From Propionicimonas sp. (GTDB lineage Bacteria; Actinomycetota; Actinomycetes; Propionibacteriales; Propionibacteriaceae): DNA of 64,000 bases. This document shows, piece after piece, positions 4,471 to 58,417 of the stretch. The first letter of the stretch is position 1, and each line of letters opens with the position of its first letter. A model generated the notes under the pieces. That model saw nothing but the letters and a program-made list of their open reading frames with translations. It searched no databases and was not told the origin of the DNA. The stretch lies in NCBI RefSeq assembly GCF_049840635.1, contig NZ_JASGKL010000004.1, positions 380,605 to 444,604 on the forward strand, given 5' to 3'. The position numbers and the translations under genes were made by a program.

Positions 4471-4696
4471 CCGTCCACCACAAGGTGGACGGAAAGTCGC
4501 GACTACACGGCAAATCCGTCCACTTCACGGTGGACGGGGGCGGCGTCCGCGACAAGGTGGACGGATAGTCGCGAGTACACCGCACAACCGTCCACTTCAA
4601 GGTGGACGCGGCCGCGGGCCACGTCAAGGTGGACGGAAAGTCGCGAGTTCGCCGCACAACCGTCCACTTCAGGGTGGACGGGAGCGGCGTCGGAGC
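4471..4696. repeat. Tandem array of three 72-bp internally palindromic units
   Basis: Units start at 4481, 4553 and 4625: CAAGGTGGACGG-A(A/T)AGTCGCGA-N13-CCGTCCACTTC-N1-2-GGTGGACG plus about 15 variable bp. Confidence 0.88.
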
Positions 4697-4698
4697 CC

Positions 4699-4727
4699 TG
4701 TCATCCCGGGCTGGACCCGGGATCTCC
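4699..4727. repeat. Single REP-like palindrome (GTCATCCCG family)
   Basis: TGTCATCCCGGGCTGGACCCGGGATCTCC, one mismatch to the copy at 1639-1667. Confidence 0.8.
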
Positions 4728-4857: not shown

Positions 4858-5376
4858 TCAGCGCTGCACGGGGACGGCTGCCCGCTCTCGGGCGAGCAGC
4901 GAGCGCTTCACCTCGACGCCCCAGGCGAAGCCGCCCATCGTGCCGTCGCCGCGTAGTACACGGTGGCACGGGACGAACAGCGCGGGCGCGTTCGTCGCGC
5001 AGATGCTGGCGGCGGCGCGCACCGCGGTCGGGCTGCCGAGGACCTCCGCGAACGCCGCGTACGACAACGGGTGGCCCGGCGGGATCTCCCGCAGCTGCCG
5101 CCAGCCGCGCAGGCGCCAGTCGCTGCCGGCCTGCCGCACCGGCACGTCGTCGATGGCGGCCAGGTCGCCCGCGTAGTAGCGGCGGACGGCGTCCGTGGGG
5201 CCCGCGACCTCGGCGTCGTCGAGGTCCGCCGCTTCGACCGTGTCCGGGCGCTCGGCGGGACGCAGCCGGGCGAGGATCACCTCCGGGTCGCCCGTCCAGC
5301 CGGACGCGAGGACGACCCCGTCCTCGGCGAGCAGGGTGAACGGCCCGTCGGCGGTGTCGATCGTGGTGAGCTTCAT
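4858..5376 (-). CDS. ogt: Methylated-DNA-[protein]-cysteine S-methyltransferase
   Basis: [18 protein letters not shown], active-site VPCHRV; ATG at 5376 overlaps the alkA stop. Confidence 0.93.
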
Positions 5377-6867
5377 CGGGTTTCCTTCCTCGGTGTGGCG
5401 GCGCGCCACAGGTGCAGGGCGGCGTAGGACCGCCACGGCGAGAGTCGTGCGCCCCAGGCCGCGAGTTCGCGGGGGGAGTCGGGCAGGCCGAGGGCCGCGG
5501 CGCCCTTGCGCAGGGCGACGTCGCCGGTCGGCAGGATGTCCGGGTGCCCGAGGACGCGCATGGCGACGTACCCGGCCGTCCACTCGCCGATCCCGGGCAG
5601 CGCGACCAGGCGGTCGTGCTGGGCGACGGGGTCGTCGGCCCAGGACAGGTCGAGCTCACCGATGGCGAGCCGCTCGCAGATCGCCAGGATGTGGGCGATC
5701 CGCGTCCGGGGGCCGACCAGGACCTCGCGGCCGTGCTCGACCACCTGCGCCGGCGTAGGGAACAGCAGTCCGAGCCGATCGACGGGGGAGGGCACGGTCG
5801 TCCCGCACGCCTGCGCGAGCCGGGACAGCTGGGTGCGGGCGGCCGCGACCGAGATTCTGCTGGCCGACCAGCGCCCGCAGCAGCATCTCGTGGGGGTCGA
5901 CAGCTCCCGGCAGCCGGATCCCCGGCGTGGCCGCGAGGGACGCGGTGAGCGCAGGCTCGGCGGCGAGTGCCTGGTCGATGCCGACCGGATCGGCGTCGGC
6001 GTCGAAGAGCCGGCGCACCCTGGCGACGAGCGGGGCGAGGTCGGCCAGCGTGGTCAGGGTCGCCGACAGCGACAGCCGGTCGGCGTCCGCGCGCACCTCG
6101 AAGGTGGCCGGCCCTCGGGGCAGGAGGAGCGTCCGCGCGTAGTGGTCGGGGCCCGCGTCCTCGACGCCCGGCAGCGCCCGTGCGGCGAGCCACGCGAACA
6201 CCCCGGCCGCGTCGAACGGCAGCCGCACGGGCAGCGCCAGCCGCACCCGTACCCCGTCCGCCGATCCGGACGCGGGGTGGGCGGCGGGCCCCGAGCCGTC
6301 GGCAGTGCGGCGTGGACGGGTGGCGCGCAGCGCGGACGGCGTCCGGTCGTACACCTCGGCGACGGTGTCGTTGAACTGCCGGATGCTGCCGAAGCCGGAC
6401 GCGAACGCGATGTCGCTGATCGACAGGTCGGTGGAGACCAGCAGTTCGCGGGCCACCTGGGCGCGGTGCGCGCGGGCCAGGGCCAGCGGCCCCGCGCCCA
6501 GTTCGCCGCCGAGCAGCCGGTTGAGGTGACGGGTCGTGTAGCCGAGCCGGCCGGCGAGCCCCGGCACCCCCTCGCGCTCGACCACCCCGTCGGCGATCAG
6601 CCGCATGGCGCGCGCGGCTGCGTCCTGTCGCAGGTTCCACTCCGGGGAGCCGGGGACGGCGTCCGGCAGGCACCGCTTGCACGCCCGGTAGCCGGACTCG
6701 TGCGCCGCCGCGCTGGTTGCGAAGAACTCCACGTTCGCCGGTTTGGGCGTGCGCGCGGGGCAGGACGGCCGGCAGTAGATGCCCGTGGAGCGGACCGCGG
6801 TGACGAACGCGCCGTCGAAGCGGGCGTCCTTCGTTGTGACCGCCCGATAGCGCTGCTCGAAGTCCAT
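5373..6867 (-). CDS. alkA: Ada/AlkA fusion (Ada metal-binding domain, AraC HTH, DNA-3-methyladenine glycosylase); split by a +1 frameshift at 5855-5856
   Basis: [11 protein letters not shown] and GYRACKRC Zn site, AraC region, LPGIGEWTA HhH motif; removing one T at 5855/5856 restores [11 protein letters not shown] and joins the 5656..6879 and 5373..5795 ORFs. Confidence 0.9.
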
Positions 6868-6926
6868 ACCGACCAGCATGGCAGGCCGCCCACGCCCGAA
6901 CTAGCGGAAATCGGACGCGGCCGTGA

Positions 6927-6956
6927 CCTGTGGACAACTCCTTCCTTGTCCACAGG
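6927..6956. promoter_or_regulatory. Inverted pair of DnaA-box-like nonamers
   Basis: CCTGTGGACAA-N8-TTGTCCACAGG, a perfect 11-bp inverted repeat in the divergent region between alkA and the 6998 ORF. Confidence 0.55.
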
Positions 6957-6997: not shown

Positions 6998-7966
6998 ATG
7001 TGGGGCGTGCGGACGAGAACACCCTTTCCCTTTCCCGCGGTGCCCACGGCCGGCCGCGACCTGATCGCGCTGGGCGCCAGCAAGCACCGGCTCGAGGAGG
7101 CGGTTCGCGACGGCCGCCTCCTCCGGGTGCGACGTGGTGTGTATCTGGATGCGACGAAGTGGCCGGCCGACCCGCGCGAGCAGCACCTGGTACGGGCGTG
7201 CGCCCAGCAGGCCTACCAGGCCGAAGGGGTCGTGTCACACCGGTCTGCGGCCGCCTGGTGGCGCATCCCGCTGCCCTCCACCGACTGGGTCGACGAACCG
7301 GCCTGGCTCACCCTCCCGGCCGGCGCATCGTTCCGGTCCGAGCGTTCTCCCGGTGTGGTGCAACTCGTCGCGCGCCTGCCCCGTCACCAGGTGGGGACGA
7401 TCGACGGCGGGTTCCCGGTCACCACGATCGCCAGGACGGCCGCCGACCTGGTCCGGACCCTGGAGTTGCCGGAGGCGCTGGTGGTGCTCGACGGCGCGCT
7501 GCGCCTGTTGTGCGCAGACCTGGTGCTCAACCCTCGGCGCTCCGACTACCGCAACCAGCGATTGGTCGAGGCCGCACGGGCACCCGTGCGCGACGCGATG
7601 GCCGGGCGGGGGATGGCCGCGGCGCGGCGCTGGCTCGAGGTGGCCGATCCGGTCCGGGAGAGTCCCATCGAGTCCCTCGCGTTCGGGCACATGATGTTGG
7701 CGGGCCTTCCGCTGCCCGAGTGCCAGGTTCCCATCGCGACGCCGCTGGGGACCTTCTTCCCCGACTTCTACTGGCGCGACCAGGACCTGATCGGGGAGGC
7801 GGACGGGCGGAGCAAGTACGCCGACGCTGGCGACATGATCGCGGAGAAGCGGCGCGAGCAGGTGCTGCGTGACCAGGGCCATCGTTTCGTGCGCTGGGAT
7901 GGCGGGGAGATCCACGCTCGCCCGCACGTGGTGATGGCACGGATCGGCAGGGCGCTCGGGCTGTGA
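6998..7966 (+). CDS. AbiEi-like HTH plus C-terminal DUF559/Vsr-like nuclease-fold protein (actinobacterial hypothetical family)
   Basis: N-terminal LLRVRRGVY, VVSHRSAAAWW, TTIARTAADL, RESPIESL, C-terminal PDFYWRDQDLIGEADGRSKY and RFVRW; start uncertain (6923/6998/7007). Confidence 0.75.
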   Translation: MWGVRTRTPFPFPAVPTAGRDLIALGASKHRLEEAVRDGRLLRVRRGVYLDATKWPADPREQHLVRACAQQAYQAEGVVSHRSAAAWWRIPLPSTDWVDEPAWLTLPAGASFRSERSPGVVQLVARLPRHQVGTIDGGFPVTTIARTAADLVRTLELPEALVVLDGALRLLCADLVLNPRRSDYRNQRLVEAARAPVRDAMAGRGMAAARRWLEVADPVRESPIESLAFGHMMLAGLPLPECQVPIATPLGTFFPDFYWRDQDLIGEADGRSKYADAGDMIAEKRREQVLRDQGHRFVRWDGGEIHARPHVVMARIGRALGL

Positions 7967-8134
7967 GAGTGCGGCTTTTCGCCCAGAATGGGACCGCCGA
8001 GATCCGGATGGTGGGGTAGTTGCGCCTTTCGGCCCGGTTCCAGTCCAGTGGGAGCGGGTTTCACGGGGCCGAAAGTCGCGACTCGGGCTGTCAGCCCGGG
8101 CCGGGTCTCCGGAGCCGTGCCGAAAGTCGCGAAC
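7967..8134. repeat. Nested 2+2 inverted repeat element with 51-bp spacing
   Basis: Reverse-orientation motif copies at 7967 and 8018; forward copies G(G/T)GCCGAAAGTCGCGA at 8066 and 8117; both pairs symmetric about 8050.5. Confidence 0.75.
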
Positions 8135-8304
8135 GCGCGGCGCGGGCCGAGGCCGGTTTGACCCCCTCCACCGAGGGGCCGTAGTCTTGACCCTCGGTGC
8201 TCACTGGGCAGGCGAAGCGTCGCCCGGGGCATTCAACAGAGCACACACCTCGTCCCGTCGGGGATGGGTGCGTGTCGGACAGAGCTTAGGGAAGTGGGTC
8301 GGGC

Positions 8305-23333: not shown

Positions 23334-23417
23334 GGGACCAGCGTTGCACTCGCGGGCCCGGCGTGACGACGACTCGTAGACAACCGGCTGCGTCGCACCT
23401 CTCGGGCCACGTCCGTC

Positions 23418-23582
23418 CGTGCCAGCTGGTGGCGGTTATCAGCCCGCCGCGGCGGCCGCTGCCCGGTCCGTGCCAGTCGGTGGTGGTTGTGAAGGCGTCC
23501 GGAGGCCTCACAACCACCACCAACTGACACGCACTCATTGGCGGAGCCCGGTGACCCCTCATAACCACCGCGGCCTGACACG
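23418..23582. repeat. Nested 2+2 inverted repeat element with 51-bp spacing (orphan)
   Basis: CGTGCCAG..GGTGG(C/T)GGTT(A/G)T at 23418 and 23469; complementary copies start at 23506 and 23557; both pairs symmetric about 23500. Confidence 0.75.
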
Positions 23583-23684
23583 CTCCTCCCATGATCTACC
23601 AGAGCGCTGCCGCGGACCGGGACAAGGAGATTGCGCGGCGGATCTCGGAGCTGGCGACCGGCGCTGTCCGGGTCTGACGCTGCT

Positions 23685-24044
23685 TCAGGCGCCCGGGTTC
23701 AGGCTTGCCTCCGCGTCGGCGAACGTTCCGGCGAGCGCGGCCCGCCACGAGGCGAGGTCATTGGCGAGCGTTTCCCAGGTCAGCGCGCGGTCGATCTCGT
23801 CGTATTGATGAATGAGCCAGTTGCGGTTGGCGATGGCGTCCGTCCAGAGCACACCCTCGGGTGGCTCGACGTTCGCCCGAGCGAGGCGACCGGCCGCCTC
23901 GCCGAGTTTCATCATGAGGGAGTCCCCGGCCTCTTGCAGCAACGGGTTGTCCTGATACGCGTCCCGGCCGTGGTCGACGATGTCGCCGGCGCGTTTGAGC
24001 CAGTCGCGAATGTGCAGGAACTCCTTGGCGATCTTCCGGTCCAT
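23685..24044 (-). CDS. HEPN (DUF86/HepT-like) ribonuclease toxin
   Basis: RX4H motif RNWLIH followed by QY; LMMKLGEAA; TGATG coupling with the upstream MNT. Confidence 0.88.
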   Translation of the reverse strand: MDRKIAKEFLHIRDWLKRAGDIVDHGRDAYQDNPLLQEAGDSLMMKLGEAAGRLARANVEPPEGVLWTDAIANRNWLIHQYDEIDRALTWETLANDLASWRAALAGTFADAEASLNPGA

Positions 24045-24517
24045 CACAGGAGCACCGCCTCTCGTCGGATGTCGTCGTCCAGCCCGGCCTTGAGTCCGCC
24101 GTACGTGACGAGGTCGACGGGACGGCCGAGGATCTGCTCGAAGGTTCCGAGAAGAGCGAGCAGCTCCTTGATCGCGGCGCCGGGAGGGGCATCGACCAGG
24201 AGATCGATGTCGGAGTCGTCTCGTGCGTCGCCTCGGGCAACCGATCCGAAGACCGCCAGGCGCTCGAACCCCCGAGCTCGTGCGACGTCCACCAGGACCG
24301 GTGCCGCGGCCCTCACCAAGGCTTCCGGATGCACCTTGGTCAGGTCTCGGGATGCCTTGAGTTGCTGGCTCACGGCCGGCTGGCTGATCCCGAGCTTCGA
24401 GGCCACGTCGCGTTGACTCGAACCCGTGGCGAGCAGGGCGCGCAGGGCCAGCATCCTTCGCAACCGCGAGGTCTCCTCGTGGGCCCGCGCGTCGCGGTAC
24501 TCGGCGACCAGACTCAT
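24044..24517 (-). CDS. HTH-fused minimal nucleotidyltransferase (MNT) antitoxin
   Basis: HTH SQRDVASKLGISQPAVSQQL; NTase motif FGSVARGDARDDSDIDL; RPVDLV. Confidence 0.88.
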   Translation of the reverse strand: MSLVAEYRDARAHEETSRLRRMLALRALLATGSSQRDVASKLGISQPAVSQQLKASRDLTKVHPEALVRAAAPVLVDVARARGFERLAVFGSVARGDARDDSDIDLLVDAPPGAAIKELLALLGTFEQILGRPVDLVTYGGLKAGLDDDIRREAVLL

Positions 24518-24585
24518 AAGGACATCTTATCACCGCGCGCCACCTCGGGTGGCTCGCGTCCTGCGGCCCCCGGTTGCGCGTCGGG

Positions 24586-38102: not shown

Positions 38103-38128
38103 GTGCCAACGCGGGTCCCGTCGTCATC

Positions 38129-38351
38129 GAGATCCCGGCTTTCGCCGGGATGACGGTGGCGTTTGCTGTCTGTCATCCCGGGCTTGACCCGGGATCTCTT
38201 TGTCGCAGTGGGTCGCGGGTGCCGCCGAGATCCCGGCTTTCGCCGGGATGACAGGGCTGCGTAGGTGTCTGTCATCCCGGGCTTGACCCGGGATCTCCTT
38301 GTCGCAGTGGGTCGCGGGTGCCGCCGAGCTGCCGGCTCTCGCCGGGATGAC
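38129..38351. repeat. BIME-like mosaic of alternating inverted REP palindromes (98-99 bp period)
   Basis: GAGATCCCGGCTTTCGCCGGGATGAC at 38129, 38227 and (degenerate) 38326 alternate with TGTCATCCCGGGCTTGACCCGGGATCTC at 38171 and 38270; conserved linkers; between convergent genes. Confidence 0.88.
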
Positions 38352-38359
38352 CGTGGCGT

Positions 38360-52273: not shown

Positions 52274-52309
52274 CGCGGCCAAGGGTACCCCGCGTCCCTC
52301 CCGCGGGCC

Positions 52310-52348
52310 TGTGGACAACCCGGTCCGTCCCCGGGGGCCCTGTGGACA
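52310..52348. promoter_or_regulatory. Two DnaA-box-like direct repeats
   Basis: TGTGGACAA (52310-52318) and TGTGGACA(G) (52341-52348), about 40 bp upstream of the DUF4192 start. Confidence 0.5.
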
Positions 52349-52388
52349 GGTGAGCGCTGCGTCCGCGCGCTGCCGAGGATGGCAGGGC

Positions 52389-58377: not shown

Positions 58378-58417
58378 GCTGTGGACAACCGGCCGCCGCT
58401 GTGGAGTTGTCCACAGC
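58378..58417. promoter_or_regulatory. Inverted pair of DnaA-box-like nonamers upstream of comEA
   Basis: GCTGTGGACAAC-N16-GTTGTCCACAGC, perfect 12-bp inverted repeat with an extra CTGTGGA in the spacer. Confidence 0.55.

What the first reader, a model, noticed from the sequence alone, without database searches (positions are those of the whole stretch)
6998..8134. AbiEi-like/nuclease-fold gene followed immediately by a 168-bp nested inverted-repeat element with 51-bp spacing
Seen: the element starts at the base after the stop codon (7967). It has two reverse and two forward copies of a GCCGAAAG(T/G)CGC motif, each pair exactly 51 bp apart and symmetric about one centre, so it can fold into one long stem. 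An element with the same layout but unrelated sequence lies with no such gene at 23418-23582. Established: REP palindromes can be spread by a cognate enzyme gene lying beside them (RAYT-REP). Inference: this gene family, abundant and poorly characterised in Actinobacteria, plus its structured 3' element may be an autonomous unit of an undescribed mobile or nucleic-acid-targeting system, with orphan palindromes as non-autonomous copies.
Basis: partly seen in the sequence, partly recalled or inferred. Interest (0 to 1): 0.72.

Follow-up and report, generated by a model that had tools for sequence, protein, structure and literature searches.

The report
Nuclease gene with cognate four-site arrays
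A DNA-binding nuclease gene found in one order of high-GC bacteria (Propionibacteriales) is almost always followed by a 165-bp array of four matching binding sites at fixed spacing, and further copies of the same array sit at other gene ends in the same genome, a gene-and-site partnership that I did not find described in the papers I searched.

Summary
At 7967-8134, directly after the stop codon, four ~24-bp sites lie in the order two forward, two reverse. Spacing is 51 bp within each arm, and the inner cores are 19-20 bp apart. The fourth copy is degenerate. Only the sites pair; the 31-bp spacers do not, so there is no long stem.

The gene (6998-7966) encodes an AbiEi-fold DNA binder fused to a Vsr-like nuclease whose catalytic residues are invariant. 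Of 81 homologous loci, 62-68 carry the same array just past the stop codon. About 14-16 also carry a cognate array upstream. The motif differs between paralogues and co-diverges with the protein.

A search that ignored the gene found 61 more arrays, all in Propionibacteriales. Of 35 that could be judged, 31 lack the gene. Nineteen of 40 such solo arrays best match a gene-linked array in their own genome (1.1 expected by chance). Copies share only sites and geometry, and some sit at orthologous positions across species. These are old, selected protein-binding arrays, not recently copied repeats or an RNA.

The most likely mechanism is four monomers per array, with the inner pair placing two nuclease domains over the centre. 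Binding is well supported; cutting is inferred. I found no paper describing this.

The parts
6929..6954 (.). Inverted pair of TTGTCCACA boxes (6929-6937 on the minus strand, 6946-6954 on the plus strand) 44-69 bp before the ATG. A box GTT(A/G)TCCACAG lies ~50-60 bp upstream of the start in most of the 80 homologous genes, whatever their array motif. It matches the DnaA-box consensus TT(A/G)TCCACA.
   Evidence: 5 exact matches in the window against 0.19 expected. CTGTGGA is present upstream in 66 of 80 loci; TCCACA or its complement in 72 of 80.
6998..7966 (+). Gene for an AbiEi-fold DNA-binding module (residues ~17-200) fused to a Vsr-like/DUF559 PD-(D/E)XK nuclease (residues ~220-320). The true start may be the GTG at 7007, judging from the homologues' N-termini (MRTPxPF).
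   Evidence: Pfam DUF559 21.3 bits (cut-off 20.6); AbiEi_4 is below its cut-off. PADLOC AbiEi E 2e-14. AlphaFold model pLDDT 95. Foldseek hits: AbiEi 6Y8Q E 1.5e-6, Rv2827c 1ZEL, I-Bth0305I 3R3P, NGO0050 3HRL. Invariant residues E221, E225, S226, D256, E267, D269, G270, K273 in 41 homologues.
7967..8134 (.). Array 'E': four ~24-bp sites in the order forward, forward, reverse, reverse. Spacing is 51 bp within each arm, and the cores of the two inner sites are 19-20 bp apart. The ~31-bp spacers are fixed in length but free in sequence.
7967..7992 (+). Outer-left site (GTGCGGCTTTTCGCCCAGAATG). Degenerate copy; it starts at the base after the stop codon.
8018..8043 (+). Inner-left site (TTGCGCCTTTCGGCCCGGTTCC).
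8058..8083 (-). Inner-right site (reverse complement TCGCGACTTTCGGCCCCGTGAA).
8109..8134 (-). Outer-right site (reverse complement TCGCGACTTTCGGCACGGCTCC).
23417..23583 (.). Solo array with the same geometry and a different motif (GTGCCAGnnGGTGGTGGTT(A/G)T). No homologue of the gene lies next to it or anywhere else in the window.
   Evidence: (score 65/80).
4472..4691 (-). 72-bp tandem array (3.1 units). Each unit carries TCGCGACT(T/A)TCCGTCCACC, the same specific box as the sites of the array at 7967-8134. It may be a further set of cognate sites in a different layout.
   Evidence: TCGCGACTWTC occurs 5 times in the window, only here and in the array, against 0.06 expected.

Best explanation
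The 168-bp element is a DNA landing pad of four sites for the protein encoded just upstream. That protein has an AbiEi-type module, which in known relatives binds one ~23-bp repeat per monomer, joined to a Vsr-like nuclease domain.

Four monomers occupy the four sites, two facing right and two facing left. Each site has three parts: a 10-12-nt box that sets the specificity of that paralogue, about 5 free bases, and a family-wide core GGTTAT(C/G) on the side facing the centre. The two inner sites face each other across a fixed 19-20-bp gap and together span about 62 bp. This geometry would bring two C-terminal nuclease domains together over the centre. It resembles the Vsr-like homing endonuclease I-Bth0305I (a homodimer with a ~60-bp footprint), or paired FokI-type enzymes. 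There the enzyme would nick or cut, or be held in check.

Gene plus array is a heritable module that is present or absent between close relatives. Further cognate arrays without the gene sit at the 3' ends of other genes in the same genome. They are kept by selection and change their specific box in step with the protein.

Shown: the architecture, the gene-array linkage, the co-divergence, the cognate solo arrays, the vertical inheritance, the fold and the intact catalytic residues.
Inferred: binding stoichiometry (from AbiEi precedent), where the nuclease acts, and the biological purpose.
For: Linkage: spacing 51 in 40 of 78 loci against 2 or fewer for unrelated spacings; the full layout in 62-68 of 81 loci, starting -11 to +17 from the stop.

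Protein-binding signature: only the sites are conserved. Spacers are fixed in length but random in sequence. Direct identity (0.72) equals inverted complementarity (0.73), and there is no G.U strand bias.

Site size and logo: about 24 bp, with C at -12 in 91% of sites and the core GGTTAT.

Precedent: AbiEi and Rv2827c are monomers that each bind a 23-bp repeat, and four repeats are bound at once at the rv2827c promoter (PMC7319586).

Fold: AbiEi plus Vsr-like domains, pLDDT 95; catalytic residues invariant. I-Bth0305I is a homodimer with a ~60-bp footprint and a C-terminal Vsr-like domain (PMC3239194). The inner gap is 19 or 20 bp in nearly all of the 61 arrays found independently.

Co-divergence: Mantel 0 of 999. 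At orthologous loci all four sites changed together (L182/L234, L202/L236).

Cognate solo arrays: 19 of 40 best match a gene-linked array of their own genome, against 1.1 expected.

Module polymorphism at folE|folP: empty, gene+E, E+gene, E-gene-E and solo E all occur.
Against: No binding or cleavage data exist.

No conserved sequence lies at the centre where cutting is proposed.

Protein-motif correlation is strongest for residues 76-215, not for the winged helix. It cannot be separated from shared ancestry.

Long-term conservation of solo arrays is unexpected if the enzyme simply cuts them.

The window's own array has degenerate cores (GAATG, GGTTCC) and one weak site.

About 15-20% of homologues show no adjacent array.

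Several motif classes of solo arrays have no gene in my sample. The sample is incomplete: MAGs, and 80 of 94 loci kept.
Confidence: 0.55

Rival explanations
1. Pure regulator. The protein acts like AbiEi or Rv2827c as a repressor or roadblock. The arrays are its operators, forming a small regulon at gene ends that may block read-through between convergent genes. The nuclease domain would serve another, unrelated role.
For: AbiEi family members are autoregulators that bind arrays of 23-bp repeats. Solo arrays are conserved at orthologous positions and abut the stop codons of inward-facing genes: 23 of 31 have an ORF of at least 100 aa ending within about 25 bp. Such conservation fits a function useful to the host.
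Against: The arrays lie after the gene, not at its promoter. The promoter instead carries a different, family-wide box. Nuclease catalytic residues are invariant in 41 homologues. Several paralogues with different specificities occur per genome, which is unusual for a terminator or roadblock factor.
Confidence: 0.2
2. REP/RAYT-like mobile system. The protein copies or moves the arrays and itself. Solo arrays are non-autonomous copies.
For: The gene is flanked by cognate arrays on one or both sides. Cognate solo arrays occur in the same genome. The module is present or absent between close relatives, and a solo array occurs at the same folE|folP junction.
Against: Copies within a genome share no spacer sequence. 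Solo arrays are orthologous across species. No target-site duplication or terminal repeats were seen at the folE|folP junctions. The protein is not an HUH or DDE enzyme. Judging from the few perfect-core copies found per genome, copy number looks low (my estimate: tens, not hundreds).
Confidence: 0.1
3. Single-chain toxin-antitoxin or defence module. The nuclease is a toxin held inactive on its arrays by the AbiEi-like part, and is released on phage attack or on loss of the module.
For: Homology to the AbiEi antitoxin. Several diverged paralogues occur per genome, with patchy presence. An addiction effect would explain why the sites are retained.
Against: No AbiEii/DUF1814 partner lies next to the window gene, and none was seen among the called genes of the five homologue contexts that were annotated. 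PADLOC matches only the AbiEi part. The locations are housekeeping ones (rplU, folE-folP), not defence islands. Solo arrays far from the gene are not explained.
Confidence: 0.1
4. Structured RNA: a 3' UTR hairpin, terminator or small RNA made from the element.
For: The element lies directly after the stop codon. The window element folds somewhat better than shuffles (z -2.9).
Against: The spacers are not complementary. Outer and inner arms carry the same motif, which pairing does not require. There is no G.U strand bias, no Rfam hit and no terminator-like site. Arrays occur in both orientations relative to neighbouring genes.
Confidence: 0.04

Closest known systems
AbiEi antitoxins of type IV AbiE toxin-antitoxin systems (S. 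agalactiae AbiEi; M. tuberculosis Rv2827c)
   Same: The first ~200 residues have the same two-domain fold. Those proteins are monomers that each bind one 23-bp repeat, and Rv2827c binds four repeats at once (PMC7319586). The sites here are of similar size (~24 bp), and there are four of them.
   Different: There is no AbiEii/DUF1814 toxin gene; a Vsr-like nuclease is fused instead. The repeats lie after the gene and at other loci, not in the promoter. The order is forward, forward, reverse, reverse with 51/42/51-bp centre-to-centre spacing, rather than two adjacent inverted pairs separated by 13 and 4 bp.
I-Bth0305I and the 'EDxHD' Vsr-like homing endonucleases
   Same: A C-terminal Vsr-like catalytic domain with an N-terminal DNA-binding part. 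The enzyme is a homodimer on a pseudo-palindromic target with a ~60-bp footprint, comparable to the 62 bp spanned by the two inner sites here.
   Different: The gene here is not in an intron or intein, nor in a phage. The arrays are not an interrupted or uninterrupted allele pair. There are four sites, not two half-sites. The centre is not conserved. Solo arrays persist instead of being invaded.
RAYT transposases with REP/REPIN repeats
   Same: One gene per repeat family. The gene is flanked by its cognate palindromic repeats. Further copies sit in intergenic regions at gene ends. Inheritance is vertical.
   Different: The enzyme fold is unrelated (not HUH). The copies here share only protein-binding sites and spacing, not their whole sequence. 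They do not form a continuous hairpin. They appear far fewer per genome.
Type IIS FokI-like enzymes and engineered TALEN/ZFN pairs (a functional analogy only)
   Same: A monomeric reader of an asymmetric site carries a nuclease domain that must pair with a second copy bound head-to-head across a spacer of fixed length.
   Different: There is no homology. Pairing and cutting across the gap are not shown here. An extra outer site lies 51 bp away on each side.

Membership tests
AbiE type IV toxin-antitoxin system | [quoted passage not shown] | tested here: met
   Foldseek 6Y8Q E 1.5e-6 and 1ZEL E 1.8e-4; PADLOC AbiEi E 2e-14. Pfam AbiEi_4 is below its cut-off (21 vs 25 bits).
AbiE type IV toxin-antitoxin system | Adjacent AbiEii (DUF1814 nucleotidyltransferase) toxin gene in a two-gene operon | tested here: not met
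   The window neighbours are ada/alkA and rplU. No DUF1814 is listed among the called genes in the five homologue contexts that were annotated.
AbiE type IV toxin-antitoxin system | Inverted 23-bp repeats in the system's own promoter, used for autoregulation | tested here: not met
   The arrays lie after the stop codon in 62-68 of 81 loci. The promoter region carries a different, family-wide box. About 14-16 loci do have a second array 60-135 bp upstream.
DUF559 / Vsr-like PD-(D/E)XK nucleases | Vsr-like fold with conserved acidic and lysine catalytic residues | tested here: met
   Pfam DUF559 21.3 bits (cut-off 20.6). Structural matches 3R3P and 3HRL at rmsd ~3.2 A. RESPIES...PDF...GEADGxxKY is invariant.
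Vsr very-short-patch repair endonuclease proper | Partner cytosine methyltransferase (Dcm) and action on T:G mismatches | not tested
   No methyltransferase gene lies next to the window gene. Activity cannot be tested here.
Homing endonuclease (EDxHD family) | Gene sits inside its own target (intron, intein or free-standing), and the target is the uninterrupted allele | tested here: not met
   Whole arrays flank the gene rather than split halves. The empty folE|folP sites contain no array.
RAYT/REPIN | HUH (IS200/IS605-like) tyrosine transposase | tested here: not met
   Domain and fold searches give only AbiEi and Vsr-like hits.
RAYT/REPIN | Gene flanked by cognate repeats that also occur dispersed in the same genome | tested here: met
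RAYT/REPIN or MITE | Copies similar over their whole length; terminal repeats and target-site duplication | tested here: not met
   Spacers are unrelated between copies. No duplication was seen at the folE|folP junctions.
CRISPR array | Direct repeats with variable spacers, and cas genes | tested here: not met
   Repeat length (~20-24 bp) and spacer length (~31 bp) resemble a CRISPR array, but there are only 2+2 copies in inverted arms. No cas genes were seen in the window ORFs that were examined or annotated.
Rfam RNA families | Match to a curated covariance model | tested here: not met
   Only a tRNA in the whole window reaches the gathering threshold.

The most novel reading that the evidence does not exclude
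A previously unrecognised class of chromosomal gene-and-site system. It would consist of a diversifying family of sequence-programmable nucleases (an AbiEi reader plus a Vsr-like cutter, built like natural TALEN pairs). Each would co-evolve with a set of four-site arrays placed at gene ends across the genome. The arrays would be maintained for a chromosome-level function, such as controlled nicking or recombination, replication or transcription barriers, or an addiction mechanism. Expression would be tied to a DnaA-box-like promoter element that is shared with the comEA-comEC DNA-uptake genes.
Probability: 0.3. Interest if true: 0.9.

Novelty: new variant of a known kind. Interest (0 to 1): 0.8.

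Why it matters
AbiEi-plus-DUF559 proteins form a large, uncharacterised family: 5723 clusters at 50% identity have E up to 0.001. They are annotated only as 'antitoxin domain-containing' or 'DUF559'.

This work gives one subfamily a concrete and testable DNA target, with a defined site logo and a strict geometry. It shows many natural protein-site pairs of different specificity. That is a ready-made data set for reading the recognition code of AbiEi-type domains, and possibly for building sequence-specific binders or nickases.

It also reveals a class of intergenic arrays, conserved for a long time at gene ends in Propionibacteriales, whose function is open.

Tried and rejected
- An exact 60-mer of the element found nothing in genome contigs.
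- A single-protein locus search found no relatives. The 41-sequence alignment was too diverse for the locus search. A 14-sequence alignment worked.
- Empty site between alkA and rplU: among 80 rplU loci only L114 has alkA nearby, and it carries a phosphatase and a LysE gene instead. No clean empty site exists.
- My interim conclusion that solo arrays are rare was wrong. The gene-independent pattern search overturned it.
- About 42 pattern hits outside Propionibacteriales were plain 51-bp tandem repeats. Those inspected were coding 17-aa repeats and palindromic tandem units. All were rejected as unrelated.
- A tandem second gene copy, or a pseudogene next to upstream or solo arrays, was looked for and not found.
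- RNA reading: Rfam, terminator scan, spacer complementarity and G.U bias were all negative.
- No RNA-seq run holds the region.
- Literature: no paper holds both DUF559 and AbiEi. The 22 of 25 DUF559 papers listed showed, by title and abstract, nothing on such repeats.
- A homing model with a break in a solo array repaired from E-gene-E was considered and thought unlikely. The homology would be limited to ~20-bp sites, and solo arrays persist.

Full report
**1. What is in the window**

The window is 71% G+C. The gene at 6998-7966 (+) ends with TGA at 7964-7966. It lies between a divergent ada/alkA gene and rplU-rpmA-obg.

Directly after the stop come four related sites:
- GCGCCTTTCGGC at 8022 (reverse sense);
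- the exact 14-mer GCCGAAAGTCGCGA at 8068 and at 8119;
- a degenerate copy at 7971 (9/12).

Spacing within each arm is exactly 51 bp, and the whole is symmetric about 8050/8051. The 12-mer with two mismatches is no commoner in the window than chance (26 found, 25.7 expected). The signal is the arrangement, not the word.

A second element at 23417-23583 has the same layout with another motif.

**2. The protein**

- Pfam gives DUF559 just above its cut-off and AbiEi_4 below it. PADLOC AbiEi models match residues ~20-160 (E 2e-14).
- An AlphaFold model built on 41 homologues has pLDDT 95.
- Residues ~17-200 match the AbiEi antitoxin (6Y8Q) and Rv2827c (1ZEL). The last ~100 residues match Vsr-like nucleases (I-Bth0305I 3R3P, NGO0050 3HRL).
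- The motif RESPIES...PDF...GEADGxxKY is invariant, so the nuclease is probably active.
- Homologues are almost all from Propionibacteriales. The wider family holds 5723 clusters at E up to 0.001 and 62 at E up to 1e-30.

**3. The gene-array linkage is general**

The first three homologues looked up were one syntenic locus and two in other contexts. All had a 51-spaced 2+2 element after the stop, one of them with an unrelated motif.

In 80 loci from species-representative genomes:
- A free scan of spacings 25-99 found a direct repeat of at least 12/14 at spacing 51 in 40 of 78 loci. Spacing 52 occurred in 6 loci and spacing 50 in 2. No other spacing occurred in more than 2.
- A scorer for the full layout found it in 62-68 of 81 loci, starting -11 to +17 from the stop.
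- In block-shuffled sequence of the same total length, scores of 46 or more out of 80 occurred once.

**4. Anatomy**

When elements are aligned on their centre, the outer sites occupy -81..-62 and the inner sites -31..-11, mirrored on the right. The ~31-bp spacers and the centre show background complementarity.

A logo from 69 elements shows a ~24-bp site:
- variable positions (-15..-13 and -11..-5) that carry the paralogue's specificity;
- C at -12 in 91% of sites;
- T-4 followed by GGT;
- the core GGTTAT, then S, R, G on the side facing the centre.

The inner cores are 19 bp apart in most of 61 independently found arrays and 20 bp in nearly all the rest.

Direct identity (0.72) equals inverted complementarity (0.73). 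Mismatches are G.U-compatible equally on both strands (156 vs 155). This is the signature of four equivalent protein-binding sites with constrained phasing, not of an RNA or DNA hairpin.

Rfam and a terminator scan were negative.

**5. Arrays on both sides of the gene, and module polymorphism**

About 14-16 loci also have an array whose centre lies ~140-220 bp (up to ~300 bp) before the start. Where both arrays could be compared, motif and orientation match the downstream one.

- In L078 the two copies are ~93% identical, spacers included.
- In L070 only the sites are conserved.
- No second gene fragment exists in any locus.

In Micropruina the module sits between folE and folP. Metagenome contigs with closely related folE show every state:
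- empty junctions of 38-58 bp (L273, folE 95% identical; L276, L278, L279);
- gene plus downstream array (L274);
- upstream array plus gene (L275);
- array-gene-array (L078, L011, L012);
- a solo array with another motif (L283).

I saw no target-site duplication.

Between alkA and rplU no clean empty site was found. The closest relative (L114) has two other genes there, and the conserved rplU promoter/leader begins near 8150, outside the array.

**6. Solo arrays**

I searched all genome contigs with geometry plus core only: GGTTNT-N45-GGTTNT-N18-21-ANAACC-N45-ANAACC. This gave 103 stretches.

- 61 are from Propionibacteriales, and all are true arrays with extended site similarity.
- The remainder come from other phyla. 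Those inspected are ordinary 51-bp tandem repeats, and several others show overlapping matches at 51-bp shifts.
- Of 35 arrays with at least 1.3 kb on both sides, only 4 have the gene next to them.
- 23 of the 31 solo arrays abut the end of an inward-facing ORF.
- 19 of 40 solo arrays have their best match, among 61 gene-linked arrays, in their own genome. Chance expectation is 1.1.

Copies within one genome share only sites and geometry.

Solo arrays occur at orthologous positions in different species, with flanks 77-90% identical. In two such pairs all four sites have changed their specific box together.

The arrays are therefore old, vertically inherited and under selection. Their specificity evolves in concert, as expected if a trans-acting reader sets it.

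**7. Protein-motif co-divergence**

Across 60 gene-array pairs, protein identity and box identity correlate (Spearman 0.37; no permutation out of 999 reached it). The correlation is strongest for residues 76-215. Shared ancestry contributes to this and cannot be removed with these data.

**8. Mechanism**

Established precedent:
- AbiEi and Rv2827c are monomers that each bind a 23-bp repeat. Four repeats are bound together at the rv2827c promoter (PMC7319586).
- I-Bth0305I, whose Vsr-like domain is C-terminal, is a homodimer that footprints ~60 bp (PMC3239194).

My inference is that four monomers bind the array, and that the inner head-to-head pair (62 bp, fixed 19-20-bp gap) places two nuclease domains over the centre. 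Whether they nick, cut or are merely held there is unknown. The centre has no conserved sequence, and the persistence of solo arrays argues against simple destructive cleavage.

The rival readings are listed with their evidence: regulator or roadblock, REP/RAYT-like mobility, single-chain toxin-antitoxin, and RNA.

**9. Further observations**

- A box GTT(A/G)TCCACAG lies ~50-60 bp before the start in most of the 80 genes, whatever their array motif (CTGTGGA in 66 loci; TCCACA or its complement in 72). From general knowledge, it equals the DnaA-box consensus TT(A/G)TCCACA. In the window it forms an inverted pair at 6929-6954. The only other pair in the window precedes comEA-comEC.
- A 72-bp tandem array at 4472-4691 carries three copies of the window array's specific box.
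- More distant homologues (39% identity) have 2+2-like arrays with 52-bp spacing further downstream.

**10. Novelty**

Full-text searches found no paper that links DUF559 with AbiEi or describes such arrays.

The parts are known kinds: an AbiEi reader, a Vsr-like nuclease, and gene-repeat partnerships such as RAYT/REPIN. The following were not found described in those searches:
- the fusion paired with strict four-site arrays;
- the dispersed cognate solo arrays;
- their concerted evolution.

I rate the finding a new variant of a known kind. There is a real chance that it is a new kind of system.

Noticed in passing
window 4472-4691: 72-bp tandem repeat (3.1 units) just after a gene end. Each unit holds a hairpin CCGTCCAC-N6-GTGGACGG and the box TCGCGACT(T/A)TCC, which is shared with the array at 7967-8134. 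TCGCGACTWTC occurs 5 times in the window against 0.06 expected.
   Followed up: partly
window 6929-6954; 58380-58415; 52309-52349: Exact DnaA-box consensus TTGTCCACA occurs 5 times in the window (0.19 expected). One inverted pair precedes the nuclease gene. A second inverted pair precedes comEA-comEC. At 52310 there is one exact box, with a second CTGTGGACA about 32 bp downstream. The same box precedes most of 80 homologous genes. The binding protein is unknown.
   Followed up: partly
window 38128-38358 and 4695-4725: 99-bp tandem repeat (2.3 units) containing the hairpin GTCATCCCGGGCTTGACCCGGGATCTCC. A single copy of the same hairpin lies right after the 72-bp array. This is another intergenic repeat family of this genome.
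   Followed up: no
window 5373-6879 (-): The ada/alkA gene appears split into two overlapping ORFs (5656-6879 and 5373-5795), whereas the syntenic relative L001 has one 507-aa product. This may be a frameshift or a sequencing error.
   Followed up: no
window 8150-8304: The stretch before rplU is conserved in L001 and L114 (GCCGGTTTGACCC...GCCGTAGTCTTGACCCTCGGTG...AGCTTAGGGAAGTGGGTCGGGCGTGTAC). It is probably the rplU promoter and leader, and it is separate from the array.
   Followed up: partly
window 23685-24533 (-): A HepT-like ribonuclease-domain ORF (Pfam E 1.3e-8) lies next to the solo array at 23417-23583.
   Followed up: no
L270 3831-4012 and 4049-4185; L271 1752-1821: Downstream of distant homologues (~39% identity) are 2+2-like inverted arrays with 52-bp spacing, about 420 bp from the stop in L270. 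L270 also has a 52-bp tandem triplet with a related motif.
   Followed up: partly
L283 3200-3420: A solo array between folE and folP in a more distant relative has sites ACCCGACTTTCC..CCGAT, resembling the window's own box (GCGACTTTCGGC).
   Followed up: no
L221 4440-4790; L175 2900-3270; L207 7360-7700: Unrelated 51-bp-period tandem repeats in Firmicutes (palindromic units) and a coding 17-aa repeat in Verrucomicrobia matched the geometry pattern. The shared 51-bp period is probably coincidental.
   Followed up: partly
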